Virus record (IMG/VR): IMGVR_UViG_3300032116_000040
Coordinates: 58,085-122,084 of that record
Direction: 5' to 3' (one strand)
Origin: a virus
Lineage: Duplodnaviria > Heunggongvirae > Uroviricota > Caudoviricetes
Length of the DNA: 64,000 bases
Part shown: piece by piece, positions 4,687 to 63,639 of the stretch
How the letters are laid out: every line of letters begins with the position of its first letter
How positions within the stretch are numbered: the stretch's first letter is position 1
Program-made: the position numbers and the translations under genes
Notes under the pieces: generated by a model
What the model was told of the DNA's origin: nothing
The model's database searches: none
The model's input: the letters and a program-made list of their open reading frames with translations, nothing else

Positions 4687-5061
4687 TTAATACATTTTAG
4701 GTTGAAACTTTCTCATACCTTGAGTCAAAGGTTCTGCGAAGTTTTTATAGAAGCTTGACTTGTAGAACTTGGATGGAGTAGGTCTAAATAACATGACGAT
4801 ATTGCCAGTTCTTCCTTGCTCAATGCTAATTTTTCCATCATAGTCATGTTGTTCAGCCTGTCTAATAACTGACTCAACTGAATTATATAAATCTGCATCA
4901 GTTAGTCCTTCTTCTTCTAACGCGTCGTCGATCTTTCTGATCAAATCCATTTTTCTAAGCTCTAGATCTTTTTCACTAGGTCCAAAAAGGCTCTCTTGTA
5001 CTTCTGAATGTCTGCGACTCTCATTGATAAATTGATTAAAAGTCTTTATTTGATTTTTCAT
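4687..5061 (-). CDS. hypothetical protein with capsid-targeting-sequence-like N-terminus (MKNQIKTFNQFINE)
   Basis: ORF track. N-terminal motif family. AAATAAATAAATAAAAATAAAAG motif upstream at 5071-5093. Confidence 0.5.
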   Translation of the reverse strand: MKNQIKTFNQFINESRRHSEVQESLFGPSEKDLELRKMDLIRKIDDALEEEGLTDADLYNSVESVIRQAEQHDYDGKISIEQGRTGNIVMLFRPTPSKFYKSSFYKNFAEPLTQGMRKFQPKMY

Positions 5062-5084
5062 AATACTCTTGCTTTTATTTTTAT

Positions 5085-5843
5085 TTATTTATTCAACTTC
5101 TCGTTATTTTCGATCTTTTCAAAAACTTCTTCTATTTTTTTAATTATTGGGTGACGTACAATATCCTCGTTTGAAAGTTGAGCTATTCCTATCTCCTCGA
5201 TCTCAACAAAATACTCCATCAGGATCTCAAGAGCGCTTTTTTGTCCTTTGTTTACTGATTTTTGCTTAATATCTCCCAAGAAAACCATTTTAGAATCATT
5301 TCCGATCCTAGTTATGAGAGTATGAAGATGGTCCTTTGCGATCTGTTGAGCTTCGTCGACCAGGATTATTGCATTGTCTAGAGTTACGCCCAATGCAAAT
5401 TTGATAGGCAAGATCTCAATCGCCCCATTCGCTTTTAACGACTCAGTAGCCTGTTTACCTATTACTTTGTGAAAATTTGAGATGAATGGATACATGTACA
5501 TCTCCATTTTTTCTTCTAGCGTTCCTTTTAAATATCCGATCTCCTCGTCCTTGGGCACGTTAACTGATTTTATTAAGATGATCTTTTTGTAGGTTCCAGG
5601 ATCCTCCTTTAAGTACTTGAGAGCTCGAGCACAAGAAAGATAAGTCTTACCTGTTCCTGGAGGACCGGTCACGATAGAGATATCGTGGTTTTCTATCGCA
5701 TTCATCGCGTCCTTTTGAGCTTTAGATCTGCATTTTATCTCTATTTTATTAGTAAACATTTTTGCAGTCGTTAGTGCCTCTCGCTCTCTTTGCCAAGTTT
5801 CAATATCCTCTAATTCCTCTTTACTTAATCTTTTTTTTGCCAT
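5085..5843 (-). CDS. phoH: PhoH-like ATPase
   Basis: Walker A GPPGTGKT and Walker B ILVDEAQ. Size and architecture typical of PhoH, which is common in T4-like phages. Confidence 0.85.
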   Translation of the reverse strand: MAKKRLSKEELEDIETWQREREALTTAKMFTNKIEIKCRSKAQKDAMNAIENHDISIVTGPPGTGKTYLSCARALKYLKEDPGTYKKIILIKSVNVPKDEEIGYLKGTLEEKMEMYMYPFISNFHKVIGKQATESLKANGAIEILPIKFALGVTLDNAIILVDEAQQIAKDHLHTLITRIGNDSKMVFLGDIKQKSVNKGQKSALEILMEYFVEIEEIGIAQLSNEDIVRHPIIKKIEEVFEKIENNEKLNK

Positions 5844-5846
5844 GTG

Positions 5847-6473
5847 TTAATATATTTTAGCTGCAATCACGATCCCTAGTAGGATCTTTATATAGTGGAT
5901 TTGAAAATTAAGAAAAGCTGTCGCTACTTTAAATTGTTTTTCTGAAAATTCAGTGGATTTTAACGCAGATTCGCTTAGTTTTTGCAAAGCCAATTTTACC
6001 TTTGAAGGAAGGACCGTCTCATAGATCAAAATAAAATCAGAGATGACGTCGCCTACATCAAACTCAGTAAAGTTTTCACAATCCAATAATCGAATGAATT
6101 TTTTACCCACTCGAATTGCCTTTATTTTTTCAATCAAGTTATCACTTTCCAGAGATAGGTCCAATAGAAGTCGAAGTTTATCCATCTTTTTAATCTTATT
6201 AGATTCTTGGGCAATCCACTCAATGTCATCTTTATAGATTGAGATAGTTACGTTTGAGTCGGATTCAGGATAATCAAAATTAACGATAGCTGATGTTCCG
6301 GTGTCGCCGAATGCATTGATTAGGATCGGAGATATTCCTAACGAAACAAAACTACTGCCTTTTTCTACAACAGTAATCTCATAATCAGGAAAAGGAAATT
6401 CTGCCATAAATGGAAGAACCTTCCTTAGGTCCAATAGTTTTCCCTCCGCCTCTTTGTAGTTATGGTCTTCCAT
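5847..6473 (-). CDS. hypothetical protein (about 208 aa from the internal ATG; the track ORF extends to 6509 with a GTG start)
   Basis: The ATAAATAA-type motif TTTTTATTATTTATTTT lies at about 6484-6500. That is inside the 6509-start version but upstream of the internal ATG at about 6471-6473, so I prefer the shorter start. Confidence 0.45.
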   Translation of the reverse strand: MEDHNYKEAEGKLLDLRKVLPFMAEFPFPDYEITVVEKGSSFVSLGISPILINAFGDTGTSAIVNFDYPESDSNVTISIYKDDIEWIAQESNKIKKMDKLRLLLDLSLESDNLIEKIKAIRVGKKFIRLLDCENFTEFDVGDVISDFILIYETVLPSKVKLALQKLSESALKSTEFSEKQFKVATAFLNFQIHYIKILLGIVIAAKIY

Positions 6474-6622
6474 AGCTATCTTCTTTTTATTATTTATTTT
6501 GAAATCCACTCGATCTTGTATGGATGATCTCTCGATAGATTCAAACAGACCATAAAATCCTCATGAAAAAATAGTATCTTATCACCATTAAACCAGTTTT
6601 TAAAAATAAAGTATAAAACTAC

Positions 6623-8056
6623 ATGGAAAACAAAGAAAAACAAATTAAAAAATTAGACCTTAAACAGAATGCGATTAAGATCTTAATTAACTCTATTTAT
6701 GGTGCCTTTGGAAACAAGTGGTTCTATTTTTACAATCCAGATATTGCGCAGTCCATCACTTTACAGGGACAGGATCTAATTAAGTTTTCAATTAAAGCAG
6801 TAAATCACTATTTTTTAGAAAAATGGCATCTTGATACTGAGTTACATCAAAAATTAGGAATCGATGGATATACTATTAATAAGATAGAAGACGAGGCTGC
6901 GATCTACACAGATACTGATTCAATCTATGTCCAGTTTGACTCTGCACTTGACTCAATAGTAGGGGCTAGCTTTACAAAAGACGAAGCATTGAATATATGT
7001 ATCAACATCGATCGATATCGACTCTCTAATTACTTTGATATTTGTTTTGAAAAATATGGGCGTCTGTTTAATACTAAGAATCGACTTAAGTTCAAATTAG
7101 AAAACCTTTCTGAGACTGGAATCTGGCTTAAAAAGAAGAACTATGCCATTCGAGTCGCATACGAACCCAATCCAAACTATGAGCTTGAGCCTCAACAAAA
7201 AAGGTATCTAATAATCAAGGGTCTTGAACCAGTAAAAGGATCATATCCAATCTGGGCTAGAGAAAAGCTAATCGATCTCACGTCTTTCATTATGGATCGA
7301 GGTAAACGTCTTGATATTGAAAAAGATATCGTGCCTCGACTTACTGCTCTTAAAAATGAAGCTCTTTCCCTGCATCCTGACGATCTTGCATTTAACTTTA
7401 ATATCAGAATATACAATAAATACGTTGCTAGTGAAGAGAGATTGGAACTTAAAAAAGGAATTTCCATCTTCCCTAGGGCAGCCGCCATCTATAATCACAT
7501 CCTGATCAAGACGGGACTTGTTGAAAAATACCCTAAGATTAGAGAAAAGGACAAGATCAAGTTTTATTATTGCAATCCTGAAACAAATGATGGAGGTCAC
7601 GACGTCTTTGCATATTCTCCTGGAACATATCCGGATGAAATCGCTCTGCTGATGGATATCGATGCTCAATTCTTTTCGCTAATAGTCGAACCTGTCAATC
7701 GTCTTCTTACTGCAATGAAGATGAGTTCGCTCGATATCAATCTAAAAAGGTCAGTCGATGTCGTCACAGTAAAGAGCAAAAAGGTTTTAACTGATGCTGA
7801 GATTTATCCTTTATACATCGTTGATCAAGAGACATTGGAATACGTTGAGGTTCCAGAGAAATTTTGGAAGATGATCGGTAACCCCGATGCTGAAATTCCA
7901 GAAGAAGATTTTCAAGAATATTTGGGAGTCATCACACGATATGGTCTAAACACAACGATTGTGCCCAAGCCGGAACTAGATAAGTACTTGAAGAGAATGA
8001 CTAAGAAAAAGGAGAAAAATAATCCTGTTCTTGAATTAGAGGAAGAAAATGATTAA
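6623..8056 (+). CDS. 43: family B DNA polymerase, C-terminal (palm/fingers/thumb) segment only; gp43B-like split polymerase
   Basis: KILINSIYGAFGN (KxxxNSxYG motif B) and AIYTDTDSIYV (YGDTDS motif C), close to T4 gp43 KIMLNSLYGALGN / YGDTDS. The ORF starts just before motif B. No exonuclease or motif A region lies upstream. Confidence 0.8.
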   Translation: MENKEKQIKKLDLKQNAIKILINSIYGAFGNKWFYFYNPDIAQSITLQGQDLIKFSIKAVNHYFLEKWHLDTELHQKLGIDGYTINKIEDEAAIYTDTDSIYVQFDSALDSIVGASFTKDEALNICINIDRYRLSNYFDICFEKYGRLFNTKNRLKFKLENLSETGIWLKKKNYAIRVAYEPNPNYELEPQQKRYLIIKGLEPVKGSYPIWAREKLIDLTSFIMDRGKRLDIEKDIVPRLTALKNEALSLHPDDLAFNFNIRIYNKYVASEERLELKKGISIFPRAAAIYNHILIKTGLVEKYPKIREKDKIKFYYCNPETNDGGHDVFAYSPGTYPDEIALLMDIDAQFFSLIVEPVNRLLTAMKMSSLDINLKRSVDVVTVKSKKVLTDAEIYPLYIVDQETLEYVEVPEKFWKMIGNPDAEIPEEDFQEYLGVITRYGLNTTIVPKPELDKYLKRMTKKKEKNNPVLELEEEND

Positions 8057-9185
8057 CCTATTGACTGGATACAACATACACCAATTCATAAAAGATCTCT
8101 TAAAAAAGAGGTTTCCCGAAGATCGATTTAAGCAAGAAGTATACGAGTCTGGCGATAAAATTAATTTTGCTTGTCCATATTGCGGAGACTCCAAATCCGA
8201 TTCTCGAAAAAAGAGAGGAAACTTATATCCTGATCGTAGCTTCTATAAGTGTTATAATGATGGTTGTGGAGTAAAGGTAGATCTCACTAAGTTTATTTCA
8301 AAGTTTTCTCTTAAATATTCGTTGGGTGTTCCTGACATAAAGTCTCCTGAAGTAAAATGGACTCCTCAGACGACTAGGAAGAAGAGAGGCTCGCTCATAG
8401 AATTTTTAATTAGTAAGAACGTCGGTGACCACCTGCTAAGAATAGATGCAATGGTTGACCGTTTTTCGCTGTCTCCGTGCTGTGAGGCTGATGCTGACTC
8501 AAGAGTCGGCTCCTTCATCCGAAATCGAAGCCTGCTAGACCTTCCTCTTTTTAATGAGTGTGCATACTTTGACTCTCGAGACGATAAGATCTATTTATTT
8601 AATATTGATCTCAAGTCAGGTAAGGTCCTAGGATTCGCGATACGTCGAATCGGAGAAGATGTAATTGGACCAAAATACCTGATTAAAAACTACTCTGAAC
8701 TAAAGAAGAACGGTCTTGTTCGAAACGTTGAAGACGATATCGTTTCTGATATCGATTCGATCAACAACTATTTTAATGTGCTAAATGTCGATTTCTCAAA
8801 ACCCATTCTAGTGACTGAGGGCCAGATTGATGCGATGTTTTTAAATAACTCGATTGCAACGACTGGCATCTCCAAGAGCAAGCTGTTACTTGAAAACCTA
8901 TTAAGTAAATCAAATACTTTGATCCTATTTGATAGTGATGTTGCGGGTAAGACACAATCGGTCGACTTGATTAAAAAGGGATATCGAGTATTTTTATGGA
9001 ATAAGATGATGGCAGATCTTCGAAAAAAGTACAATGCGGATTATCGGAACGTTAGACTCATTAAGGATGTGAATGACCTATATTCGTTCATGCTTAAGCA
9101 CGATAGCTCCCTCACGTTCGACTCCTTCAATGCAACAGTTTTACAATACTTTTCTGAATCTCCATTAGATTTGCTCTATGTTTAA
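8049..9185 (+). CDS. 61: DNA primase, gp61/DnaG-like (zinc ribbon + Toprim)
   Basis: FACPYCGDSKSD...YKCYNDGCG matches T4 gp61 FRCPVCGDSKTD...CYNCNY. Toprim ILVTEGQIDAM and LILFDSDVAG. 8-nt overlap with the polymerase gene. Confidence 0.75.
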   Translation: MINLLTGYNIHQFIKDLLKKRFPEDRFKQEVYESGDKINFACPYCGDSKSDSRKKRGNLYPDRSFYKCYNDGCGVKVDLTKFISKFSLKYSLGVPDIKSPEVKWTPQTTRKKRGSLIEFLISKNVGDHLLRIDAMVDRFSLSPCCEADADSRVGSFIRNRSLLDLPLFNECAYFDSRDDKIYLFNIDLKSGKVLGFAIRRIGEDVIGPKYLIKNYSELKKNGLVRNVEDDIVSDIDSINNYFNVLNVDFSKPILVTEGQIDAMFLNNSIATTGISKSKLLLENLLSKSNTLILFDSDVAGKTQSVDLIKKGYRVFLWNKMMADLRKKYNADYRNVRLIKDVNDLYSFMLKHDSSLTFDSFNATVLQYFSESPLDLLYV

Positions 9186-9210
9186 ATAAATAATAAAAAA
9201 TTAAAACTTC

Positions 9211-9519
9211 ATGAAAAGAGTAATGTCTTTTAGAGAATATAAACTAAATGAAATGGAAGAATCTGAAATTCCATTTGAGATCGATGAATCTTTGTTCGAT
9301 GAACTAGTTGAGCTAGTCGGTTCAGAGGAAGACATCGAAGAGGCAGCTGAGGGCGCTTATTCTGATCTTGCAGAAGCAGCAGAAAAAGGAGACGTTGAAA
9401 TGTCAGAAGACGACATGCCAGAAAAACTGGCGATCGCTGCACTATTGGTAAAACTAGTAGAAAAAGGAAAGCTTGGTCCAGACGACGCTGATGGACTAAT
9501 CGAAAAATACTTAGGATAA
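9211..9519 (+). CDS. small acidic hypothetical protein (102 aa)
   Basis: ORF track. AAATAAATAATAAAAAA motif upstream at about 9186-9205. Confidence 0.5.
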   Translation: MKRVMSFREYKLNEMEESEIPFEIDESLFDELVELVGSEEDIEEAAEGAYSDLAEAAEKGDVEMSEDDMPEKLAIAALLVKLVEKGKLGPDDADGLIEKYLG

Positions 9520-9580: not shown

Positions 9581-9597
9581 TTAAATAAATAATTAAT

Positions 9598-10098
9598 ATG
9601 AAACAAGAACGAGACATACATGACTTTCTAAAACCTCAAAAAGGAAAGGTCAAACAAGGTTATTTTACTCCAATGAATCCTGAAAAATATTCGGGAGACG
9701 TTTCAAAGATAATTTACAGATCAAGCTGGGAACTTAAGTTTCTATCCTACTGTGATAACACTGAAGCAGTAGTCGAATATGCATCCGAACCCGTTCCAAT
9801 CGCCTATTGGAATCCGATCCTAAAAAAAGAATCTACTTATTGGGTTGACTGTTACATGGCAACCAAGTCGCCGGATGGAGAGATCACAAAATGGCTCATT
9901 GAGGTCAAGCCTCAAAAGTATCTGACTCCACCCGAAGCTCCAAATAGATTGACTGAGAAGGCGACTCTTAATTATGCTAGACACGCTAAAGCTTACATCA
10001 TCAATGATGCTAAGTTTAGGGCAGCAAAAGTTTATGCCAAAAAGAATAATATGAGGTTTGGAATAATTACAGAAAACTTTCTGTTCAATAAGGTGTAG
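9598..10098 (+). CDS. hypothetical protein (166 aa)
   Basis: ORF track. TTAAATAAATAATTAAT directly upstream. Confidence 0.5.
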   Translation: MKQERDIHDFLKPQKGKVKQGYFTPMNPEKYSGDVSKIIYRSSWELKFLSYCDNTEAVVEYASEPVPIAYWNPILKKESTYWVDCYMATKSPDGEITKWLIEVKPQKYLTPPEAPNRLTEKATLNYARHAKAYIINDAKFRAAKVYAKKNNMRFGIITENFLFNKV

Positions 10099-10728: not shown

Positions 10729-12450
10729 ATGGCAGGATTTTTAGACACATCAGGAAAAAAAGTAAGCGGCACGCTATCAAGCTTAAGTAAGTTTGGTACT
10801 CGACACGAAGACCTTTTGCTTAGAAACTCACAAGCGATCGGTTTTATCGAAAGCCAGCTACAGTCTAGAACGTCTAGACTAAACGCAAATGACGAGCTTC
10901 TTAAGTTCTCAATGGCCATCTCAGATACTACTTCTCAACTAAGAACCAAAGCAATTGCCTTTTTTCAATTGGACTATGTAGTTAAGAGAGAAAGACTAAG
11001 GGATGTTGCCTCCAATGGAGAAATCGAGTTTGTTCTTGAGACCATCGTTGATGACATGATAGTCTACGATGAGGAACAACGTTTTCTCTATCCTAGGGAC
11101 CTAACGGGCAAGATCTTTTATCGTGGTGATACTAAAGAAGAGCGTTTAAACTTTCAAGAAAAAGTACTTAAAAAGTACAATGATAACTTTGAAAGAGTTT
11201 ATAATTCTTGGGGATTCGCCGAAGGTATCGCTGCATGGCAATATGCCTTCCAGTTCTTGGTAGAAGGTCACCTTTCCTTTGAGATCATCTATGATAATCT
11301 AGAAAAACCTAAAGAGATAATTGGATTTAAGGAATTGGATCCCGCCAGCATAGCCCCTCAATTACAAAAGGATGCTAAGGGCAAGATCTTTTTACAGTGG
11401 TTACAGTACGATCAGCAGACTGGTTCTACCAGGGTTCTTAACGATTCTCAGGTGATCTATATTTCTTATGCTAATCATTTTAGGACCAAACGCGTTAGCT
11501 TTGTTGAACGATTGATTAGATCCTTTAACCTATTAAGGATAGTTGAACACAGTAAAGTTATTTGGCACGTAATGAATGCTCCAATCCGACTTACTACAAC
11601 AGTTCCCATTGGAAGTAAAAGCTTTCAAAAAGGACAGGAAGACGTTCGAGAGTTCTTAAACTTATTTAAAGAGGATATTTATTTTAATGGGGACACTGGA
11701 GAATTAAACGTTGATGGTAAACCAAACATCATGTTCTATAAGAATTATATCATGCCGGTAAACGACCAAAACCAGCAAGTAAAGATCGAGACTCTTCAGA
11801 CTCCTGGACCAAACCTTTCTGGCTCAGAGCTCTTAAATTACTTCTATAAAAAACTAAAAATGGATTCTAAGATTCCTTATTCTAGGTGGGAAGGTCAATC
11901 TGGAATGGGTGCGTTTACTCTCAATGCTGAGGGTATAACTAGGGAAGAAGTTAGGTATCAGAAATTTATTAATCGATTAAGATCGGCCTTTTCAGAAATG
12001 ATGGTGAAACCTTGGTACTTACAAATGTGTTTAGATTTTCCGGAACTTGCCGATGATTATAAGTTTAACAACGCGATAGGAGTTAAGTATCACAACGATA
12101 ACGTCTTTGAGGAGATGAAGAAGAATGATATTGAAGCTAAACGAATCGCTGCATTCACCGCTAAGAAAGGAATCATGAAAGACGATGGAACTCCATACTT
12201 TGCTACTGAATACTTGATTAGAGAGGAGCTTAAAATGACAGATGTTGAGATCGAAGCCAACAAGACATGGTTTGATCAACAGATCAAAGATGAAGAGGCT
12301 GCAGCAGCCGCTGCCGCTCCAGGCGGTGCTCCAGGCGGTGCTCCACCTGCTCCAGGAGGAGGCGCTCCAGCAGCCGCCGCTGCAGCTCCGGCAGAAGGAG
12401 GTGGCGAGGTGAAGGAGGGAGGAGAAACTTCTGGTGAAGGTCAGCTTTAA
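10729..12450 (+). CDS. 20: portal protein, gp20-like, with an Ala/Gly/Pro-rich low-complexity C-terminal tail
   Basis: IVDDMIVYDEEQRF and SFNLLRIVEHSKVIWHVMNAPIRL align with T4 gp20 IVSDAIVYEDDTEV and [21 protein letters not shown]. Size 573 aa. Confidence 0.6.
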   Translation: MAGFLDTSGKKVSGTLSSLSKFGTRHEDLLLRNSQAIGFIESQLQSRTSRLNANDELLKFSMAISDTTSQLRTKAIAFFQLDYVVKRERLRDVASNGEIEFVLETIVDDMIVYDEEQRFLYPRDLTGKIFYRGDTKEERLNFQEKVLKKYNDNFERVYNSWGFAEGIAAWQYAFQFLVEGHLSFEIIYDNLEKPKEIIGFKELDPASIAPQLQKDAKGKIFLQWLQYDQQTGSTRVLNDSQVIYISYANHFRTKRVSFVERLIRSFNLLRIVEHSKVIWHVMNAPIRLTTTVPIGSKSFQKGQEDVREFLNLFKEDIYFNGDTGELNVDGKPNIMFYKNYIMPVNDQNQQVKIETLQTPGPNLSGSELLNYFYKKLKMDSKIPYSRWEGQSGMGAFTLNAEGITREEVRYQKFINRLRSAFSEMMVKPWYLQMCLDFPELADDYKFNNAIGVKYHNDNVFEEMKKNDIEAKRIAAFTAKKGIMKDDGTPYFATEYLIREELKMTDVEIEANKTWFDQQIKDEEAAAAAAAPGGAPGGAPPAPGGGAPAAAAAAPAEGGGEVKEGGETSGEGQL

Positions 12451-13263: not shown

Positions 13264-13998
13264 TTACTGTCTAGTTAAATACATCCAATCCGGTGTATTT
13301 TCTCCCTTCATCATTGTTTTTACGTCCTCCATCTCTTTCTCAGCTGTCGTAACGATGTTTTGATAATTTACGGTTACTCCACCAGGAAGAGTATAGTTAA
13401 AAGTCTGAAGCATGTGAGCTAGTCTTACTTTGGCATGAGCTCTGACGTATCTTTGAAACATCTCATCCTCAAATAACTTATCCTGATCTAGCTTTTTATA
13501 CACTCTAATCACTCCGTTTGTAGCAGGCGTTCTACCTATTACTCCAAGAAGCTTGCTGTTCTTATTATAATCGTATGCAATCGTGTCCAGCATCATGGCT
13601 TTAGTTAGGTCTAGAAAGGAAAACATCACCGTCCTATACATGATACTCTCTCCGATAAATGGAGTCAAAAATATCTCAGATCCTATGAATTTCTGTTCTG
13701 CAAAATCACGATCAATTGTTGCAAAAATAGATCCTCCCTTAGCTTCTTTAAAGTCTACCACAAACTGCACACAGTCAGGTAATTGGATCTGTCTGTGTTT
13801 TTTAAATGTCGGATTAGTAAAAAGTTCTCTAGGAAGTAATAGATACCGACCTTCGACCGCATGTCTCCAGTTATCCCAAAAATACTTAGAATCAATATCG
13901 ATTATTCTCTTTATCTCTTTTTCTGGAAGACCATACGGTAATGCTCCTGAGAAAGTTATCTCATCATTTATGTCCTGAAGTAATTGTTGTTCGGTCAT
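13264..13998 (-). CDS. hypothetical protein (244 aa), possibly baseplate-associated given its position next to gp25
   Basis: ORF track. Context only. Confidence 0.45.
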   Translation of the reverse strand: MTEQQLLQDINDEITFSGALPYGLPEKEIKRIIDIDSKYFWDNWRHAVEGRYLLLPRELFTNPTFKKHRQIQLPDCVQFVVDFKEAKGGSIFATIDRDFAEQKFIGSEIFLTPFIGESIMYRTVMFSFLDLTKAMMLDTIAYDYNKNSKLLGVIGRTPATNGVIRVYKKLDQDKLFEDEMFQRYVRAHAKVRLAHMLQTFNYTLPGGVTVNYQNIVTTAEKEMEDVKTMMKGENTPDWMYLTRQ

Positions 13999-14002: not shown

Positions 14003-14446
14003 TTATTGATTTTTACCAGTTCCGTTTCCTCTCTCATCACTAAATCTAACGCTTGATTTATCAATGTCTATGTTAAAGTCTTTGTCTCCCATGGATCTAC
14101 CTAGAGCTCTTTGATTTTTTCGAGCAATAACATCATCCTGTTTTCCAGCTCTTTCCATCGAGTTCTTCATCACCTGGTCTAGTGCTTGAGCCTTCATTTT
14201 CTTTTTCCAATCGCTATGAAAGATCATGTTCATTGCTCTAGTAATATCTACTTCCTGTACATAACCGTTGTATCGACTTGGGTTCCTTGCCGCTTTTTCA
14301 TTAGCCAGTTCCCTAGCGATCGACATGATTGAAGTATACAGTCCGCCTAGTGCTCCTTGAACCATTCCCTTAAAGTTAGTTGGATAAACGACTTCCTTGG
14401 TCGATTCTGTAATAAACTGGTGATATGTTTGTATCTTTCTTTCCAT
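14003..14446 (-). CDS. hypothetical protein with capsid-targeting-sequence-like N-terminus (MERKIQTYHQFITES)
   Basis: ORF track. N-terminal motif family. Confidence 0.5.
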   Translation of the reverse strand: MERKIQTYHQFITESTKEVVYPTNFKGMVQGALGGLYTSIMSIARELANEKAARNPSRYNGYVQEVDITRAMNMIFHSDWKKKMKAQALDQVMKNSMERAGKQDDVIARKNQRALGRSMGDKDFNIDIDKSSVRFSDERGNGTGKNQ

Positions 14447-14754
14447 TATGTATTAGTTGGTGCAGGAGCGGCAGGTTTAGTCTGAGTCTGATTAGCTGCC
14501 GCATTTTTTGCAGCCTGAGTAGCCGCTGCTGCCTTTGCTGTAAGCTCTTTAATCTTGGTGTCCTCCTGCTGTTTTATCTGCTCTAATTGTTTTTCAAGAT
14601 TTCTCTTTTGGTCTCTAATTTGTATTAAAGCCGGATCCGTAAGAAGAGCAGAGTCATCCTCTTCAATCATTTGAGGGTTTGCTCCAGCTTCCACTTCTTT
14701 GTTTGCTTTCTTTTCAGCATTTTGAAAGCTCTTAAAACTTTTTATGTACGACAT
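14446..14754 (-). CDS. Lys/Ala-rich coiled-coil protein (102 aa), N-terminus MSYIKSFKSFQNAE
   Basis: ORF track. AAATAAATAATAAAAAAG motif at 14765-14784, which is 20 nt upstream. Confidence 0.45.
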   Translation of the reverse strand: MSYIKSFKSFQNAEKKANKEVEAGANPQMIEEDDSALLTDPALIQIRDQKRNLEKQLEQIKQQEDTKIKELTAKAAAATQAAKNAAANQTQTKPAAPAPTNT

Positions 14755-14772: not shown

Positions 14773-15048
14773 TTATTTATTTGTAAATCCTTTAGAGGTG
14801 TCGATAAACTCCTGATAAGATAAGACTCTTAGTTTTTTCTTCATCCTAGGGTTAGATCCAAATGCGCTGGTTAACCTACCTCCGCTTAGAAACGGAGAAT
14901 TATTCCAATGGGATGGAATGGTCCCAGACGCACCCGAATAAAACATCATGGCGCTTGCTCTGCTGGTATCCGGCTCTAATATTCTATTGACCGAATCTGT
15001 CTCCATTGAGATCGCTCCAAAGCCTTCAACTAATCTCTTAAGTCTCAT
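14773..15048 (-). CDS. hypothetical protein (91 aa)
   Basis: ORF track. Confidence 0.4.
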   Translation of the reverse strand: MRLKRLVEGFGAISMETDSVNRILEPDTSRASAMMFYSGASGTIPSHWNNSPFLSGGRLTSAFGSNPRMKKKLRVLSYQEFIDTSKGFTNK

Positions 15049-25449: not shown

Positions 25450-25576
25450 AATTGGGTCCTTTTTATCTTATTTATTTTATCACTAGATAAAAATTATACA
25501 CTATTTAACGAACTAGTTTTTAATTTTAAGATTACTTGTGTATTTTATCATTAAATAATAGTATAGTCTACTAAAT

Positions 25577-34194: not shown

Positions 34195-34195
34195 G

Positions 34196-51340: not shown

Positions 51341-51369
51341 TGGAGTACTTTTATTTTATTTATTTGGTG

Positions 51370-52035: not shown

Positions 52036-52122
52036 CAGTCTTTTTTATTTATTTATCTCTTTTAACCGGTCTGAACTTTTTAGTATTATAGTCAAGCAAT
52101 TACTACTAAATAGAATAGAGAA

Positions 52123-59617: not shown

Positions 59618-59621
59618 AACA

Positions 59622-60437: not shown

Positions 60438-61274
60438 ATGACCGATCAATTAGGCGACAGAATGAAGGACTTTTACGAAGACCGAACACGTTACAAGTTG
60501 GCACGTCGCACCAACACAATCATCCGCATCGACGGAAAAGCTTTCCATACTTATACTCGAGGACTTAAGCGTCCATTCGATGAAGGGTTAATGGAAGACA
60601 TGAACAAGACAACTGAGTACCTATGTCAGAATATCCAAGGTGCAAAATTTGGATACGTTCAATCAGATGAGATTTCAATTCTCATCACTGATTACGATGA
60701 CATTTCTACACATGCTTGGTTTGATGGTAACTTGCAGAAAATGGCAAGTATCGCTGCTTCATTGGCAACTGCAAAGTTTAACCAACTAAGAACACTAAGA
60801 AGAATGGAAGAACTTCATGATTACGAAATCATGAGCGTAGTGGAAGAAACTAAACTTGCAATGTTCGATGCTCGAGTATTTCAAATTCCTTACCAAGAGG
60901 AAGTGATTAATTACTTTATTTGGAGACAACAAGATGCTACAAGAAATTCTATTTCTTCTGTTGCTCAAGCTTACTTCTCCTCAAAGGAATTACATGGAAA
61001 GAAAACCAATGAAATGCAAGACATGCTGATGTTGGAAAAAGGAATCAATTGGAATGATTTTACCCCAAGAGAAAAACGAGGATCTCTTATCCGTAAAGTA
61101 GAAAAGACTTATGTGAAATTACAATCTGGACAAACAGTTCAAGTAAATCCTTCCCAAGTAGATCCTAGATTAAACGAAACATTCTCAAGAAACAAATGGG
61201 AAGCTGATAAAGAAACCCCAATCTTTTCGCAAGATAAATGTTATCTTCGTGAGTTAATGCCAAACCACAATTAG
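60438..61274 (+). CDS. Thg1-like protein (tRNA-His guanylyltransferase family 3'-5' nucleotidyltransferase)
   Basis: TIIRIDGKAFHTY, FGYVQSDEISILI and NLQKMASIAASLATAKF align with the Thg1 blocks VVVRLDGRNFHRF, IAYGQSDEYSFVF and FKRRASKFMTHVASQFAS. Confidence 0.65.
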   Translation: MTDQLGDRMKDFYEDRTRYKLARRTNTIIRIDGKAFHTYTRGLKRPFDEGLMEDMNKTTEYLCQNIQGAKFGYVQSDEISILITDYDDISTHAWFDGNLQKMASIAASLATAKFNQLRTLRRMEELHDYEIMSVVEETKLAMFDARVFQIPYQEEVINYFIWRQQDATRNSISSVAQAYFSSKELHGKKTNEMQDMLMLEKGINWNDFTPREKRGSLIRKVEKTYVKLQSGQTVQVNPSQVDPRLNETFSRNKWEADKETPIFSQDKCYLRELMPNHN

Positions 61275-61340
61275 AATGGACCTAGAAGACCTATTTAAAC
61301 CCGACCCGGAGTAGACTGGATATAGACCAGTACGGCCCAT

Positions 61341-61949
61341 TTAACCGATCTGCTCAAATCGAAGAGGATCGATATTACCCGACCCCACATCAGTGATCAG
61401 TCCAGGCACACCATCACCGTCTACATCGGAATAGATTGCACCGTATCCAATGGTCCCGTCAGGGGAATCTCCACCATTGGGTAGGCTAGACTGGGAAGTC
61501 AATTGTGTCATCAGCTGCCAGGTAATTATACGAGTACCGTTCGCCAGGTCAAGATACACCTCGTCATGGGATCCCTTAAGCTCGGTGTTAACGGCCAACG
61601 AATAGCTCGTGTTGTTGACTGGCTGCGAAATACTTGTCCGGTACCACACGTCATAATAGAACAGGTCAAGGTCGACTAGGTTCGCGAAAACATAACGATT
61701 GCCCACCTTAGTATACTCAACATTGGTGAGCTCAAGAGCCTCTGCTAGGTCAGATTTTGGATAGAGCCATGCAGTATCGGTAGCAGTCTTCCAATAAGGA
61801 ACCTGTAACCTCGATCCGCCTACACCACCGATACTGGCCATCGCACTAGAAGCACGGACTGCCTGTTCAAATAAAGCCTGTTCCTCCTCAAATCTCTTAC
61901 GTAGCCTAAGCTGTTCTGGGCTCTCTCCGCCCCAATTAATAAATGACAT
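61341..61949 (-). CDS. fibre-family protein (about 202 aa) with the shared N-terminal module MSFINWGGESPEQ
   Basis: True start taken at the internal ATG at about 61947-61949. The track's 61988 start would place AAATAAATAACTTAAAAAG inside the coding sequence. Confidence 0.5.
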   Translation of the reverse strand: MSFINWGGESPEQLRLRKRFEEEQALFEQAVRASSAMASIGGVGGSRLQVPYWKTATDTAWLYPKSDLAEALELTNVEYTKVGNRYVFANLVDLDLFYYDVWYRTSISQPVNNTSYSLAVNTELKGSHDEVYLDLANGTRIITWQLMTQLTSQSSLPNGGDSPDGTIGYGAIYSDVDGDGVPGLITDVGSGNIDPLRFEQIG

Positions 61950-61992
61950 CTCTTCTCTTTTTAAGTTATTTATTTTAAAGGATCCCATCTAA

Positions 61993-62005
61993 TTAGTATA
62001 ATATA
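61993..62005 (+). promoter_or_regulatory. TTAGTATAATATA -10-like box in a bidirectional intergenic region
   Basis: Motif family. Also AAATAAATAAATAAAAAAAATAG directly before the ATG at 62060. Confidence 0.35.
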
Positions 62006-62059
62006 ACTAACCATCTACTACGGAGGTCGGTTCGGCAAATAAATAAATAAAAAAAATAG

Positions 62060-62635
62060 ATGCTTACTATGATTAAAGGATTTCAGGCATGGATAAATGA
62101 AAATGAAGAGACTCCTGGTCGGGAAACCACTGACGACATACAGAGACTATTTGACTTGGGAATGATTGACCGAACCGATTTTGCAAGGTCAAAAAAGAGA
62201 GTCGACCCTGCAGGATGGGTGGCTCGTCTACTACAGGAGCTAGAAGATCGACACCTGGCCGAACCCAATATCTGGGGAAAACCCGTACTTAGACCAACTC
62301 CTTACAATACACTTGAGTTTACCCTTAGTTCAGACATGGTAAACCTGCCAGAACAACACTATAATAATTATCAATACTTCCTGCTCTGGACAGAACCAGT
62401 CACAGTAGTAATCTACCTAGGCGGAGACTCCTATCTTGAACTAAGAGCAAGCTATGCTAACGACGACTTTGAAGAAGAGTATGGTAATGAAGAGGACCAG
62501 TACGATGCAACTTGGACATATTACGGCCAAACAGTAATACACACAGTAGACGATATCCTTACTATCATTAGCGAGTTTAACGATGAGGTAGACTCATACA
62601 CTATTGAAGACTCTCCAAACTGGAGTCACGACTAG
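62060..62635 (+). CDS. acidic hypothetical protein with capsid-targeting-sequence-like N-terminus (MIKGFQAWINENEE)
   Basis: ORF track. Start may be at MIKG, 9 nt downstream. Confidence 0.45.
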   Translation: MLTMIKGFQAWINENEETPGRETTDDIQRLFDLGMIDRTDFARSKKRVDPAGWVARLLQELEDRHLAEPNIWGKPVLRPTPYNTLEFTLSSDMVNLPEQHYNNYQYFLLWTEPVTVVIYLGGDSYLELRASYANDDFEEEYGNEEDQYDATWTYYGQTVIHTVDDILTIISEFNDEVDSYTIEDSPNWSHD

Positions 62636-62726
62636 TCCAACACTGGGCTAGTCTCCCGACTCCTGTAAGATCCAATATGCTTTTATCTTTTTAAAGTAGA
62701 ACACCCATTTAGTATAATAGCACTAT

Positions 62727-62957
62727 ATGAAACGCTACACCGTAATCCTTAAACTCTGCGCAAAGCGCTCGCCTTGGCCCTACATTGGAGTCGACGACCA
62801 CGAGTTTGAGTTTGAACACGACATCCGACTCATACTTATCGGAGAACCCAAATACTATGTCGACTCCAAGAAACAGGTCAAGTTTAGAGTAGAAGGCGGC
62901 ACTCGAGAATACTTTACTGAACTAGGCAACTTTCTCCAAAACACGGAACCCATATAA
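62727..62957 (+). CDS. hypothetical protein (76 aa)
   Basis: TTTAGTATAATAG lies 8 nt upstream. Confidence 0.4.
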   Translation: MKRYTVILKLCAKRSPWPYIGVDDHEFEFEHDIRLILIGEPKYYVDSKKQVKFRVEGGTREYFTELGNFLQNTEPI

Positions 62958-62985
62958 CTAACTACACAGAACAGGTACTCCTCAA

Positions 62986-63639
62986 CTAGACCAGTTTACT
63001 AACGCTGTTGTCACTACGGAGTCCAGTCTCATCCCGTTCCAAGTATCCTAAAAAACCATCAAGGTCCCTTAGCGAACCCATAGGTATTAGGGATTCTGGA
63101 TTGACTATTATGATCTCATAACGACCGTCGTCCGGCACGATCGCATCGTAACCAAGCTCCCTAGACCTGTCCCCAATCCAGGAGAACCACTGTAACCGAA
63201 AGTCCGTCTCCAATGTGGGATCGAACTTAAAACCCTCCTTGATCTCTGGAGCATTGCTAAAGTTATAATCAGTGAGGAGAAAGTTGAGACCCTTTGGGAC
63301 CAGGATAAAGAAATTAAGCTTGTCCTCGGATATCTCCAGTTTCGGAGAAACAAAGAAAGCGTCTGCGCTGTTGAAATTTTCCTGGCCTCTCTTAGTGGGC
63401 GTGGATATGGAAGCACGCAATATCTCGTCTGACCGAGAATAATGATGAGTCACGAAATAATCTGCATAGGCATGTTCTACCCAACCCCGATAGTCTTCGA
63501 GGCTGCCTACTTTACCGATCGAACGGTCTTGCCAGACCCAGTCAATCACCCAATCGGGAATTCCACGATCTAACGCTTCTTCAAACGAGTTCGGCTCTTT
63601 ACTGGATTCCGCAATGAACTGAACAAATGATTTTAACAT
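62986..63639 (-). CDS. hypothetical protein with capsid-targeting-sequence-like N-terminus (MLKSFVQFIAESSKE)
   Basis: ORF track. AAATAAATAACTAGAAAAAAG motif upstream. Confidence 0.5.
   Translation of the reverse strand: MLKSFVQFIAESSKEPNSFEEALDRGIPDWVIDWVWQDRSIGKVGSLEDYRGWVEHAYADYFVTHHYSRSDEILRASISTPTKRGQENFNSADAFFVSPKLEISEDKLNFFILVPKGLNFLLTDYNFSNAPEIKEGFKFDPTLETDFRLQWFSWIGDRSRELGYDAIVPDDGRYEIIIVNPESLIPMGSLRDLDGFLGYLERDETGLRSDNSVSKLV

What the first reader, a model, noticed from the sequence alone, without database searches (positions are those of the whole stretch)
4687..63639. Large family of proteins sharing a T4 capsid-targeting-sequence-like N-terminus (K-x-F-N-x-F-I-N-E)
Otherwise unrelated proteins start with the same short motif: MKNQIKTFNQFINE (4687..5061), MERKIQTYHQFITE (14003), (M)KNRAKTFNQWINE (20309, an NTase-fold protein), MKNHVKLFEAFVNE (50822), MLKSFVQFIAE (62986), LKDFQSFINE (29602), MQNKVFDFKSFLNE (37660), MKLLSFNEWRLFEE (51370), MKHILSINEW (SLT protein 27548), MIKGFQAWINE (62060), VLNFNEFSDKY (16592), MSYIKSFKSFQNAE (14446). 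Looser variants are MKYIKLYEDF (46133), MTRYIKLYEDY (2093) and MKKYIQLFESW (32909). As I recall, T4 internal proteins IPI/II/III and Alt share an N-terminal capsid-targeting sequence MKTYQEFIAE that directs packaging and is removed by the gp21 prohead protease. That is strikingly close. Inference: this phage packages, and probably injects, an unusually large set of proteins, including a lytic transglycosylase, a nucleotidyltransferase-fold protein, large acidic proteins and Lys-rich basic proteins. T4 IPI is an anti-restriction protein, so several of these could be injected anti-defence effectors.
Basis: partly seen in the sequence, partly recalled or inferred. Interest (0 to 1): 0.75.

Follow-up and report, generated by a model that had tools for sequence, protein, structure and literature searches.

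The report
T4-style capsid-targeting tags on many proteins
A roughly 248-kb uncultured freshwater phage, distantly related to T4, puts a near copy of T4's 10-residue "pack me into the capsid and then cut here" tag on at least ten unrelated proteins in this 64-kb window, and the same motif is repeated in tandem in the phage's own scaffold protein, which suggests how the tag works.

Summary
All 15 listed N-termini are at the stated coordinates.

- **Enrichment:** the motif [FYW]xx[FYW][ILV][NAT]E occurs 12 times in 101 proteins, against 0.5 expected. Eight hits start at residues 5-8, against 0.02 expected.
- **Carriers:** they share no other similarity.
- **Cross-check:** a scoring matrix trained only on related uncultured phages flags 14 of 101 window proteins, against 1 expected. 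It ranks T4 IPII and IPIII first and second among 279 T4 ORFs.
- **Match to T4:** the four conserved positions are the residues shown experimentally to govern T4 tag function (Y4 and F7 for targeting, I8 and E10 for cleavage).
- **Protease:** the genome encodes a gp21-family prohead protease fused to a scaffold, and a gp23-type capsid protein, 14-18 kb left of the window.
- **Scaffold:** it is a 14-residue tandem array of YxxY[LIV]AE, the same motif.
- **Relatives:** tagged genes sit between the protease and capsid genes or directly after the capsid gene.
- **Promoter:** tagged genes share a promoter-like ATAAATAA element with the protease gene.

Verdict: these are new members of the T4 capsid-targeting propeptide system, greatly expanded here. 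Packaging, cleavage, injection and anti-defence roles are inferred and have not been shown.

The parts
4687..5061 (-). Tagged protein, 124 aa, MKNQIKTFNQFINE|S. This is the best match to the clade consensus.
   Evidence: PSSM score 37.9 against a 99% null of 0.17. AAATAAATAA lies at 5081..5090 upstream. The public gene call gives the same 124 aa.
14003..14446 (-). Tagged protein, 147 aa, MERKIQTYHQFITE|S. It lies immediately upstream of the gp13 neck gene in the same operon.
   Evidence: PSSM score 31.4. There are 310 homologues; Y8 and E14 are invariant, F11 and N13 nearly so, and some homologues read KTYQEFINE. AF2 places a short helix at residues 8-17, at low confidence.
14446..14754 (-). 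Tagged protein, 102 aa, MSYIKSFKSFQNAE|K. It is the first gene of the operon 14446 -> 14003 -> gp13.
   Evidence: PSSM score 12.7. AAATAAATAA lies at 14773..14782.
20309..21055 (-). Tagged protein, 248 aa, TTG start, MKNRAKTFNQWINE|K. It belongs to phrog_36119 and has nucleotidyltransferase-like hits below threshold.
   Evidence: The homologue in Maribacter phage Molly lacks the tag. The Mahaphage homologue is the C-terminal part of a 544-aa protein that starts MLKYNSFIKE.
29602..30822 (+). Tagged protein, 406 aa, TTG start, MLKDFQSFINE|A.
   Evidence: PSSM score 25.1. The public gene call also gives 406 aa.
37660..39159 (-). Tagged acidic protein, 499 aa, MQNKVFDFKSFLNE|V.
   Evidence: PSSM score 15.1. 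The mature part has pI 4.5.
50822..51340 (-). Tagged protein, 172 aa, MKNHVKLFEAFVNE|V.
   Evidence: PSSM score 27.3. AAATAAATAA lies at 51356..51365.
62060..62635 (+). Tagged acidic protein, 191 aa, MLTMIKGFQAWINE|N.
   Evidence: PSSM score 17.4. AAATAAATAA lies at 62037..62050.
62986..63639 (-). Tagged protein, 217 aa, MLKSFVQFIAE|S. It ends in FIAE, as the T4 tag does.
   Evidence: PSSM score 21.4. AAATAAATAA lies at 63657..63666.
32909..33235 (-). Tagged basic protein, 108 aa, MKKYIQLFESWQRE|E. It is the last gene of the cyclase-patatin operon.
   Evidence: PSSM score 10.1. Gene context.
270..833 (-). Weaker tagged protein, 187 aa, MATKYTLGYLQYIKE|A.
   Evidence: PSSM score 7.3.
46133..46651 (-). 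Weaker tagged protein, 172 aa, MKYIKLYEDF.
   Evidence: PSSM score 5.7.
51370..52035 (-). Weaker tagged protein, 221 aa, MKLLSFNEWRLFEE|A.
   Evidence: PSSM score 1.7. AAATAAATAA lies at 52045..52054.
9211..9519 (+). Weaker tagged, very acidic protein, 102 aa, MKRVMSFREYKLNE|M.
   Evidence: PSSM score 1.1. AAATAAATAA lies at 9184..9193. Orthologues keep the pattern.
16592..17590 (-). Two-module protein, 332 aa. It has a degenerate N-terminal motif (MPGRVLNFNEF), an acidic module of about 135 aa, an internal full motif LVKGFSQFVNE at 17165..17185, and then a variable C-terminal part.
   Evidence: The internal motif is kept in 18 of 23 homologues, and similarity stops right after it. ATAAATAA lies upstream.
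18687..19460 (-). Protein, 257 aa, with an internal full motif MFVKTFESYINE at 19128..19148.
   Evidence: The internal motif is kept in 6 of 9 homologues, and similarity ends near residue 150.
19468..20286 (-). Protein, 272 aa, starting MHKYFNFARIFEAE. It has an internal motif WMLSFDQYVNE at 19669..19689, followed by a 66-residue Lys-rich tail with pI 10.3.
   Evidence: ATAAATAA lies upstream.
2093..2584 (+). Loose-motif protein, 163 aa, MTRYIKLYEDY.
   Evidence: Above the 95% null only. ATAAATAA lies upstream. One orthologue reads MAQKKLKTFQHYLNE.
21127..22011 (+). Loose-motif protein, 294 aa, MNRYVMSFDSINE|S.
   Evidence: Above the 95% null only. Orthologues keep xF/YxxINE|S.
23515..25449 (-). 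Loose-motif protein, 644 aa, MSYLLNYKKWSALYE.
   Evidence: AAATAAATAA lies at 25468..25477. The two aromatic residues spaced i, i+3 are present. It falls below the PSSM thresholds.
27548..28174 (-). Lysozyme-domain protein (Pfam Phage_lysozyme2), read from the internal Met: MKHILSINEWRTLNE|D.
   Evidence: Pfam assignment. Start context. Tag status is uncertain.
34196..34897 (-). Guanylate_cyc-domain protein, 233 aa, MKHLLSYPIWE|S.
   Evidence: Pfam assignment. ATAAATAA lies upstream. It is a loose-motif member.
39528..41048 (+). Loose-motif protein, 506 aa, MGTMLNFSQWTGSTRSNKDTKSASLNE|N. The layout resembles T4 IPI, with the aromatic pair first and the xNE site about 15 residues later.
15050..15526 (-). 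Acidic, Pro/Gln-rich protein, 158 aa, MITSIKRLYEADD, near the gp13 operon.
   Evidence: ATAAATAA lies upstream. Orthologues read MKNFMSIRKLYEDF.
10729..12450 (+). T4-type portal protein (gp20 family). This is context showing a T4-type head.
   Evidence: Pfam Portal_T4. tblastn against phage genomes.
13264..13998 (-). T4 gp13-type neck protein, co-oriented with and directly downstream of two tagged genes.
   Evidence: Pfam Phage_T4_gp13.
5081..5090 (-). One of 15 exact AAATAAATAA promoter-like elements. The others are at 6490, 9184, 9583, 14773, 25468, 31260, 50745, 50758, 51356, 52045, 61966, 62037, 62041 and 63657.
   Evidence: 15 copies against 1.07 expected. The ATAAATAA core lies within 50 nt upstream of 11 of 14 tagged genes against 14 of 87 others, p = 6e-6. 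A near-identical AATAAATAATAAAAA precedes the protease-scaffold gene.

Best explanation
**What it is.** The 11-14-residue N-terminus has the consensus M-[K/M]-[K/N]-x-[V/I]-K-[S/T]-[F/Y]-x-[E/Q/D]-F-[I/L/V]-N-E, followed by A or S. It is a T4-type capsid-targeting propeptide.

**How it most likely works.**
1. The tagged genes are transcribed late, from ATAAATAA-type promoters, together with the head genes (inferred).
2. The two aromatic residues spaced i, i+3 dock the protein onto the scaffolding core of the assembling prohead (inferred from T4 genetics).
3. In this phage the scaffold is the C-terminal part of a protease-scaffold fusion. It is built from about 11 tandem 14-residue units ending in YxxY[LIV]AE. 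The tag therefore looks like one scaffold unit and probably co-assembles with the array as an extra helical unit. The sequence resemblance is shown. The binding is inferred.
4. After the shell closes, the gp21-family (Peptidase_S77) protease cuts after the invariant Glu of [ILV]-x-E. This releases the mature protein inside the capsid, while the scaffold is cut at the same motif every 14 residues (inferred from T4 specificity).
5. The freed proteins stay with the DNA and probably enter the host with it, by analogy with T4 IPs and Alt. This is the weakest step.

**Internal copies.** Internal copies of the motif (16592, 18687, 19468) mark junctions where a conserved N-terminal module would be cut away from a variable or Lys-rich C-terminal part.
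For: **The motif is real and modular.**
- It is enriched at N-termini.
- Carriers are unrelated to one another.
- 124 strict carriers from the window and related loci fall into 32 unrelated families.
- Codons vary synonymously.

**It matches the T4 tag.**
- The T4 tag MKTYQEFIAE fits the strict pattern. It scores 18.3 on a matrix trained without T4 or the window.
- That matrix ranks T4 IPII and IPIII first and second of 279 T4 ORFs.
- The strict pattern also hits T4 gp23 at FGSFLTE 59-65, which ends where the 65-residue propeptide is removed (PMC5694885).
- T4 mutagenesis assigns targeting to residues 4 and 7 and processing to residues 8 and 10. These are the four conserved motif positions (PMC9026906).
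- T4 gp21 cuts after Glu in I/LxE (PMC12991175).

**The same genome has the machinery.**
- The window overlaps L016 at 100% identity, and L016 overlaps L293 at 100%. L293 is part of a 248,064-bp contig.
- L293 carries a 658-aa protein that hits Peptidase_S77 at 38.9 bits against a cut-off of 27. Its His81 and Ser136 align with T4 gp21 H85 and S140.
- Next to it lies a Gp23-type capsid protein, at 117 bits.

**The scaffold repeats the motif.**
- This phage's protease-scaffold has 6 strict and 9 relaxed motif copies at a 14-residue period.
- Across 44 homologues the mean is 4.3 strict hits per protein, against 0.02 in shuffles. The spacing is 14 residues in 264 cases.

**Head-module position in relatives.**
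- In 5 of the 6 loci with genes between the protease and capsid genes, a gene there is tagged.
- The gene just after the capsid gene is tagged in 15 of 39 loci, against a 3.6% background.
- 50 of 53 capsid proteins themselves start M-x(0-6)-[ILVMP]-N-E.

**Shared promoter-like element.**

**Conserved internal junction motifs.**
Against: - There is no virion proteomics, N-terminal mapping or any experiment for this uncultured phage.
- The mature parts are not generally basic like the T4 IPs: median pI is 5.6, and several are very acidic.
- The tag and the scaffold unit differ consistently. The tag is F..F-I-N-E. The scaffold unit is Y..Y-L-A-E.
- This clade's own capsid protein does not start with xINE.
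- Both AF2 models were low confidence, so the helical nature of the tag and the repeats is only weakly supported.
- The related jumbo phage PTm1 showed no enrichment in the roughly 79 kb examined.
Confidence: 0.75

Rival explanations
1. The tagged proteins are prohead core or scaffold accessory components, like T4 gp67, gp68 and gp22. They would be recruited and then degraded or expelled during maturation. They would not be cargo that stays in the capsid and is delivered to the host.
For: - The motif is the scaffold's own repeat unit.
- Several carriers are small, acidic and low in complexity: 9211, 15050, 16592 and 62060.
- Some sit in or next to head and neck operons.
Against: - Many carriers are large, apparently folded or enzyme-like proteins: 20309, 29602, 37660 and the 34196 cyclase.
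- The tag sits on at least 32 unrelated families that differ between close relatives. That pattern is typical of cargo, not of core parts.
- T4 uses the same tag for retained proteins (PMC8442874).
Confidence: 0.15
2. The motif is only a protease-removable pro-sequence that keeps the proteins inactive until late infection. It would have no role in targeting to the capsid.
For: - The [ILV]-x-E ending matches gp21-type cleavage sites.
- Some carriers could be toxic enzymes, such as the lysozyme or the cyclase.
Against: - The most conserved positions include the two aromatic residues. In T4 these govern targeting, not cleavage.
- A 10-14-residue N-terminal extension is an unlikely general inhibitor for 32 unrelated folds.
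- gp21-family proteases act inside the prohead, according to established T4 knowledge.
Confidence: 0.06
3. The motif is an N-terminal amphipathic signal for something other than the capsid. Candidates are membrane association, a phage chaperone, or regulated degradation.
For: The motif is short and probably helical, with hydrophobic residues on one face (weak).
Against: - It does not explain the invariant Glu or the near identity with the T4 tag.
- It does not explain the tandem copies in the scaffold or the position of tagged genes in the head module.
Confidence: 0.03
4. The pattern is chance, a compositional bias at gene starts, wrongly called starts, or a repeated DNA element.
For: - Gene starts in this genome are A/T- and Lys-rich.
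- Some listed members depend on the choice of start codon.
Against: - Shuffles that preserve N-terminal composition give 0.026 hits against 8 observed.
- Codons differ synonymously between copies.
- Public gene calls agree on the starts.
- The motif is conserved across orthologues.
Confidence: 0.01

Closest known systems
Phage T4 capsid-targeting sequence of internal proteins IPII/IPIII (MKTYQEFIAE) and IPI (MKTFKEF...ITE), removed by the gp21 prohead protease (Mullaney & Black 1996; PMC9026906, PMC8442874)
   Same: - It is N-terminal and 10-19 residues long.
- It has aromatic residues at i and i+3, then an aliphatic residue, any residue, and Glu.
- It is attached to otherwise unrelated proteins.
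- The genome has a gp21-family protease, a gp23-type capsid protein and a gp20-type portal.
- Some orthologues read KTYQEFINE, which is 8 of 9 residues identical to T4.
   Different: - The portal is at most about 31% identical to those of the more distant T4-type phages in the search, so the host lineage is far from T4.
- The residue before Glu is Asn, not Ala.
- The tag is usually 14 residues rather than 10.
- There are at least 10-14 carriers in 64 kb, against three IPs in all of T4.
- Mature parts are not homologous to the IPs and are mostly not basic.
- The protease is fused to a scaffold made of tandem tag-like units.
- Full internal copies of the motif exist.
- No experimental proof exists here.
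Polymorphic internal proteins with CTS-like N-termini in T-even phages (T2, T6, T4D; cited in PMC9026906 and PMC3012670)
   Same: A conserved tag sits on hypervariable cargo that differs between close relatives. Here, homology in the 16592 and 18687 families stops right after the motif.
   Different: - In the T-evens the cargo is a set of small basic proteins at a few loci.
- Here the cargo spans 32 or more families of up to about 550 aa, spread along the genome.
Long N-terminal propeptides of head and ejection proteins in phiKZ-like giant phages (SPN3US, 201phi2-1; PMC5694885, PMC7411985)
   Same: - A gp21-related protease cuts after Glu.
- Many internal head proteins carry removable N-terminal regions thought to target them to the prohead.
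- The 142-residue acidic N-module of 16592, ending in the motif, resembles such long propeptides.
   Different: - The cleavage motif there is [S/A/G]-x-E, with propeptides often longer than 100 residues.
- No shared short aromatic tag is reported for those phages.
Phage P1 DarB N-terminal capsid-targeting signal (PMC9024508)
   Same: An N-terminal signal suffices to load an anti-restriction protein, or a reporter, into the capsid.
   Different: - No consensus is shared among the Dar proteins.
- P1 encodes no separate scaffold system.
- There is no sequence relationship.
Encapsulin cargo-loading peptides (from my own knowledge; not tested here)
   Same: A short terminal peptide on unrelated cargo proteins docks them to the inside of an HK97-fold shell.
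   Different: - The peptide is usually C-terminal and binds the shell protein directly.
- It is not cleaved, and there is no scaffold or protease.

Membership tests
T4-type capsid-targeting sequence (CTS) propeptide | Short (10-19 residue) extension at the extreme N-terminus of the precursor | tested here: met
   The Glu lies at residue 11 or 14 in the 10 clear members.
T4-type capsid-targeting sequence (CTS) propeptide | Two residues, Y4 and F7 in T4, that carry the targeting function | tested here: met
   Positions -6 and -3 are F, Y or W in every strict member: F/Y 100% and F/Y/W 100% in 46 non-redundant relatives. The T4 assignment comes from PMC9026906. This is met at the sequence level only.
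T4-type capsid-targeting sequence (CTS) propeptide | An I/L-x-E processing site at the end of the tag (I8 and E10 in T4) | tested here: met
   Position -2 is I, L or V and position 0 is Glu, both invariant. gp21 specificity comes from PMC12991175.
T4-type capsid-targeting sequence (CTS) propeptide | The same genome encodes a gp21-family prohead protease with the catalytic His and Ser | tested here: met
   P0001 hits Peptidase_S77 at 38.9 bits against a cut-off of 27. His81 and Ser136 align with T4 H85 and S140. Contig overlap at 100% identity links it to the window.
T4-type capsid-targeting sequence (CTS) propeptide | A T4-type head: gp20 portal, gp23 capsid protein and a scaffolding core | tested here: met
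   Portal_T4 and gp13 lie in the window. Gp23 and a scaffold domain lie 14-18 kb to the left.
T4-type capsid-targeting sequence (CTS) propeptide | The tag is modular: the same tag on otherwise unrelated proteins | tested here: met
   No paralogy without the tag. There are 32 families. One family occurs both with and without the tag.
T4-type capsid-targeting sequence (CTS) propeptide | The tag is sufficient to load a protein into the prohead | not testable with these tools
   This needs reporter fusions and prohead or virion purification.
T4-type capsid-targeting sequence (CTS) propeptide | The tag is absent from the mature virion protein, which is cleaved after Glu | not testable with these tools
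   This needs virion mass spectrometry with semi-tryptic peptide searches.
T4-type capsid-targeting sequence (CTS) propeptide | The cargo is ejected into the host with the DNA | not testable with these tools
   This is analogy with T4 IPs and Alt only.
T4 internal proteins IPI/IPII/IPIII (homologous family) | Sequence similarity of the mature protein to a T4 IP; small and highly basic | tested here: not met
   - 4687 has no tblastn hit in the phage collection.
- The PHROGs searches gave no internal-protein family.
- Median pI is 5.6.
- Only the 66-residue tail of 19468 is IP-like in composition, at pI 10.3.
phiKZ-like giant-phage head propeptides | An [S/A/G]-x-E cleavage motif and long propeptides | tested here: not met
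   The residue at -2 is I, L or V, not S, A or G. Most tags are 11-14 residues.

The most novel reading that the evidence does not exclude
The capsid-targeting tag is a mimic of a single unit of the scaffold's 14-residue helical repeat. Any protein that acquires one unit is co-polymerised into the scaffolding core and is then released by the cut that dismantles the scaffold.

On this mechanism, this widespread freshwater phage clade and its relatives, up to 735-kb megaphages, would have built a large, fast-evolving arsenal of packaged and injected proteins. That arsenal would include two-module 'conserved carrier + variable cargo' proteins analogous to polymorphic toxins.

If so, this would explain how the T4 tag finds the core, which has been unknown since 1996.
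Probability: 0.4. Interest if true: 0.8.

Novelty: new member of a known kind. Interest (0 to 1): 0.6.

Why it matters
**Deep conservation.** The T4 capsid-targeting tag is widely used as an engineering tool, yet how it recognises the prohead core is not understood, and it has been regarded as a T-even peculiarity. Here the same tag, down to the four functionally mapped residues, appears in a distant and environmentally abundant clade. Its portal is at most about 31% identical to those of the more distant T4-type phages. The system is therefore ancient.

**A testable mechanism.** In this clade the scaffold is a plain tandem array of the same motif. That gives a directly testable hypothesis: the tag is one scaffold unit.

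**A predictor for uncultured phages.** The tag offers a sequence-only way to predict packaged, possibly injected, proteins. In this window the candidates include a nucleotide cyclase, a lysozyme and a nucleotidyltransferase-like protein. This is a shortlist for early-acting takeover or anti-defence factors.

**Relevance to host sensing.** Host sensors that detect prohead protease activity (PMC12991175) recognise the same kind of cleavage site.

Tried and rejected
**Searches that led nowhere.**
- No near-identical DNA in GenBank phages (megablast).
- No exact 36-mer match in IMG/VR.
- tblastn of the 4687 protein against phages found nothing.
- The protease and capsid genes are not in the window, nor within 10 kb of the portal in 80 related loci. 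This was checked by tblastn and by HMMs. They were found only with a degenerate DNA pattern and a protein look-up.
- Tenacibaculum phage PTm1 was checked as a cultured proxy that might have virion data. The roughly 79 kb examined shows no motif enrichment, so it cannot serve.
- Pfam and PHROGs searches of 20 carriers gave almost nothing.
- Literature searches found no description of this tag outside the T-even phages, the giant phages and P1.

**Weak models.**
- AF2 of the 14003 family gave pLDDT 64 and pTM 0.37.
- AF2 of the protease-scaffold gave pLDDT 49.
- Both were too weak for fold searches. Only the predicted helices are mentioned, as weak support.

**Explanations rejected.**
- Paralogy.
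- A DNA-level repeat.
- Composition bias.

**A test that failed.** A first scoring matrix built from the window alone overfitted and separated only 10 members. It was replaced by a matrix built from relatives only.

Full report
**What the window is.** It comes from a T4-superfamily phage known only from freshwater metagenomes.
- It carries a T4-type portal (Pfam Portal_T4, 10729..12450) and a gp13-type neck protein (13264..13998). It also has a PhoH gene, a DEAD-box helicase gene and half of a family-B DNA polymerase.
- Nothing in GenBank phages is close at the DNA level.
- By portal similarity the nearest records are uncultured huge phages (LR756500, 38.6% identity; LR756501-04), the Lak phages and Tenacibaculum phage PTm1 at 31%.
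- Only 6 of 101 genes have a Shine-Dalgarno-like sequence, and the 20 nt upstream of starts are 49% A. Together with the hosts of the relatives, this points to a Bacteroidota host (inference).
- IMG/VR holds at least 80 loci with portals 63-91% identical, so the clade is common.

The lysozyme-domain ORF needs the internal Met at 28174. Two ORFs use TTG starts.
- A strict pattern read off the clearest cases, [FYW]xx[FYW][ILV][NAT]E, occurs 12 times in 19.9 k residues against 0.5 in shuffles.
- Eight hits start at residue 5-8, against 0.024 expected. This holds even when only the first 24 residues are shuffled among themselves.
- A looser pattern of two aromatic residues three apart, starting at residue 3-10, is present in 27 of 101 proteins. 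Any other 8-residue window gives 0-14%, mostly under 10%.
- With the first 20 residues removed, no two carriers resemble each other.
- The codons under the motif differ synonymously. Selection is therefore on the peptide, not on a DNA repeat.

**Independent cross-checks.**
- I built a position-specific matrix only from N-termini found in related IMG/VR loci (46 non-redundant sequences, no window sequences, no T4).
- Its consensus is M-[K/M]-[K/N]-x-[V/I]-K-[S/T]-[F/Y]-x-[E/Q/D]-F-[I/L/V]-N-E-[A/S].
- It puts 14 of 101 window proteins above the 99th percentile of a shuffled-N-terminus null (1 expected). It puts 22 above the 95th percentile (5 expected).
- I applied the same matrix to the whole T4 genome, fetched. 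It ranks IPII (20.3) and IPIII (18.8) first and second of 279 ORFs.
- The strict pattern hits T4 gp23 only at FGSFLTE, residues 59-65. This is the end of the 65-residue propeptide removed by gp21 (PMC5694885).

**Why this is the T4 tag and not merely something like it.**
- The T4 literature gives the tag as MKTYQEFIAE (PMC8442874).
- It assigns targeting mainly to residues 4 and 7, and processing to residues 8 and 10 (PMC9026906).
- gp21 cuts after Glu in I/L-x-E (PMC12991175).
- Aligned on the Glu, those residues are positions -6, -3, -2 and 0. These are the four positions that are invariant in class across the window motif and its relatives.
- In the family of 14003..14446, Y8 and E14 are invariant over 40 sampled homologues while residues 9-10 vary freely. 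Some members read KTYQEFINE.
- T4 IPI starts MKTFKEF and is cleaved only after ITE at residue 19. This shows the aromatic pair and the cut site can be separated. That makes the window's looser members, such as 39528 (MGTMLNFSQW...SLNE), plausible but unproven.

- It is not in the window, nor next to the portal in any of 80 related loci.
- A degenerate DNA pattern for a conserved capsid-protein peptide found capsid genes on two IMG/VR contigs. Those contigs also carry portals 89% identical to the window's. It found another on a contig from a sample that holds the window's exact genes.
- The adjacent 658-aa protein hits Peptidase_S77 (38.9 bits, cut-off 27). The capsid protein hits Gp23 at 117 bits.
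- The identical protease (P0001) lies on a 248,064-bp contig.
- That locus (L293) overlaps L016 at 100% identity over 5,645 bp. L016 overlaps window positions 1-2081 at 100%.
- The protease-scaffold gene therefore lies about 14.1-16.1 kb to the left of window position 1, and the capsid gene about 16.1-17.7 kb to the left.
- The window protein 14003 is also recorded on a contig of 248,064 bp.
- His81 and Ser136 of the protease align with the catalytic H85 and S140 of T4 gp21.

**The scaffold is made of the same motif.**
- Residues of about 290-450 of the protease-scaffold read ...FVNYLAE...YQNYLAE..YVEYVAE..FGEYLAE..YSQYIAE..YSEYIAE. There are six strict and nine relaxed hits, spaced exactly 14 residues apart.
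- Across 44 homologues from related phages the strict pattern occurs 4.3 times per protein, against 0.02 in shuffles. Successive hits are 14 residues apart in 264 cases.
- The unit consensus is N-[L/V]-[N/D]-K-x-I-x-Y-[S/T]-[N/E]-Y-[L/V/I]-A-E.
- It shares the aromatic, aromatic, aliphatic and Glu positions with the tag, and the tag is itself typically 14 residues long.
- It differs in preferring Tyr over Phe, and Ala over Asn before the Glu.
- AF2 predicts the array as continuous helix, and the tag of 14003 as a short helix, but at low confidence.
- My reading is that the tag is one scaffold unit, so it co-assembles with the scaffold and is cut by the same event that dismantles it. The resemblance is shown. 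The binding is inferred.

**Genomic context supports a head function.**
- In more distant relatives, with portals 36-42% identical, the order is portal, protease-scaffold, capsid protein.
- In 5 of the 6 loci that have genes between the protease and capsid genes, a gene there carries the strict tag. Examples are MKHVKTFDKFIAE and MKHIKLFEDFVNE.
- The gene just after the capsid gene carries the tag in 15 of 39 loci (MKRVKSYNEFIAES, MKTLKTYNQFIAES), against a background of 3.6%.
- 50 of 53 capsid proteins themselves begin M-x(0-6)-[ILVMP]-N-E.
- In the window, two tagged genes (14446 and 14003) form an operon with gp13.

**A shared promoter-like element.**
- AAATAAATAA occurs 15 times against 1.07 expected.
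- Its ATAAATAA core lies within 50 nt upstream of a start in 30 of its 37 copies.
- It precedes 11 of 14 tagged genes against 14 of 87 others (Fisher p = 6e-6).
- Most of those 14 'others' are the loose-motif genes and the MSFINWG genes.
- A near-identical AATAAATAATAAAAA precedes the protease-scaffold gene and a gene in the tail and baseplate region.
- It resembles the T4 late promoter TATAAATA (my own knowledge). Late co-expression is an inference.

**Modularity and polymorphism.**
- The 124 strict carriers sampled from the window and related loci fall into 32 unrelated families.
- The 20309 family occurs with the tag in this clade. It occurs as the C-terminal part of a larger tagged protein in the 735-kb phage LR756501. 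It occurs without a tag in Maribacter phage Molly.
- A 41-kb region of LR756501 has 6 of 48 genes above the 99% null, so the system extends to megaphages.
- Three window proteins carry a full internal copy of the motif that is conserved in orthologues.
- In the 16592 and 18687 families, similarity between relatives stops just after it.
- In 19468 it is followed by a 66-residue Lys-rich tail of pI 10.3, the only clearly IP-like composition here.
- These look like conserved carrier modules joined to variable cargo at a cleavage site.

**What remains unproven.**
- Nothing here shows that any protein is in a virion, is cleaved, or is injected. The phage is uncultured, and the one cultured relative checked, PTm1, lacks the motif in the roughly 79 kb examined.
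- The mature parts are mostly acidic or neutral, unlike the T4 IPs. Some may be core components that are discarded rather than delivered.
- Function calls are thin. 34196 has a nucleotide-cyclase domain and 27548 a lysozyme domain. 20309 has only sub-threshold nucleotidyltransferase hits. The rest have no family.
- The anti-defence idea is untested.

**Comparison and novelty.**
- The system works like the T4 capsid-targeting propeptide system. By every sequence-level criterion I could test, it is a member of that system.
- The carriers are not homologues of the T4 internal proteins.
- I found no report of this tag outside the T-even phages. The literature describes longer, different propeptides in phiKZ-like phages and an unrelated signal in P1.
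- I therefore file it as new members of a known kind.
- Three features go beyond T4: the size of the repertoire, the tandem-repeat scaffold that shares the motif, and the internal junction copies.

Noticed in passing
42389..45181 (-), 49906..50724 (-), 61341..61949 (-); also L293 13744-13950, L208 4044-4649, L221 8386-8988: A second shared N-terminal module of about 45 residues: MSFINWGxExPEQ..R.K.EE..LFEQ, followed by a poly-Ala/Gly stretch. It sits on three window proteins (930, 272 and about 202 aa) whose C-termini are unrelated, and on the small gene right after the capsid gene in this genome and its relatives. The two longer window genes were found with ATAAATAA upstream; 61341 has an exact AAATAAATAA at 61966..61975 upstream of its internal MSFINWG start. 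It may be an anchor for capsid-surface or fibre proteins; this was not tested.
   Followed up: partly
32909..34897 (-): A three-gene operon: a Guanylate_cyc-domain protein with a loose tag (34196..34897), a patatin-like phospholipase (33235..34194), and a small basic tagged protein (32909..33235). A phage-encoded nucleotide cyclase next to a patatin recalls cyclic-nucleotide-activated phospholipase systems. In relative L221 the cyclase gene lies next to the capsid gene.
   Followed up: no
15 sites, e.g. 5081..5090 (-), 9583..9592 (+), 62037..62050 (+): A promoter-like element (A)AATAAATAA(T)AAAAA lies 10-30 nt upstream of gene starts. 30 of the 37 ATAAATAA copies are within 50 nt upstream of a start on the same strand. 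It resembles the T4 late promoter TATAAATA. It also precedes the gene just upstream of the portal (9598..10098), which is homologous to the equivalent gene of LR756500.
   Followed up: partly
NC_000866 (T4) 18966..19130, gene 61.1: The T4 hypothetical protein gp61.1 (54 aa) starts MKTFKEFIKE|DMV. With the matrix trained on the uncultured phages it is the third-best N-terminus in T4, after IPII and IPIII. It could be an unrecognised tagged protein in T4 itself.
   Followed up: no
6623..9185 (+): Only the C-terminal half of a family-B DNA polymerase (Pfam DNA_pol_B, 477 aa) is encoded at 6623..8056. It is followed by an overlapping 378-aa ORF with no family hit. The N-terminal exonuclease half is not in the window, so the polymerase appears to be split.
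   Followed up: no
10729..12450 versus about 14-18 kb left of window position 1: In this clade the head module is broken up. The portal is separated from the protease-scaffold and capsid genes by roughly 25 kb. More distant relatives (PTm1, LR756500 and the MCP-anchored IMG/VR loci) keep the order portal, protease-scaffold, capsid protein.
   Followed up: partly
L293 8926-9954 (outside the window, just upstream of the protease-scaffold gene): A DnaJ-domain protein (Pfam DnaJ and DnaJ_C, 342 aa) is encoded immediately upstream of the protease-scaffold gene. It may be a phage co-chaperone for head assembly.
   Followed up: no
22913..23512 (+), 31559..32461 (+), 41349..42089 (+), 60438..61274 (+): Other precomputed Pfam hits: a weak CAP-domain hit on a protein whose hydrophobic N-terminus looks like a signal peptide, a Band_7 protein, a Peptidase_M28 protein and a Thg1-like protein. 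A serine recombinase (Resolvase) lies just beyond the right end of the window.
   Followed up: no
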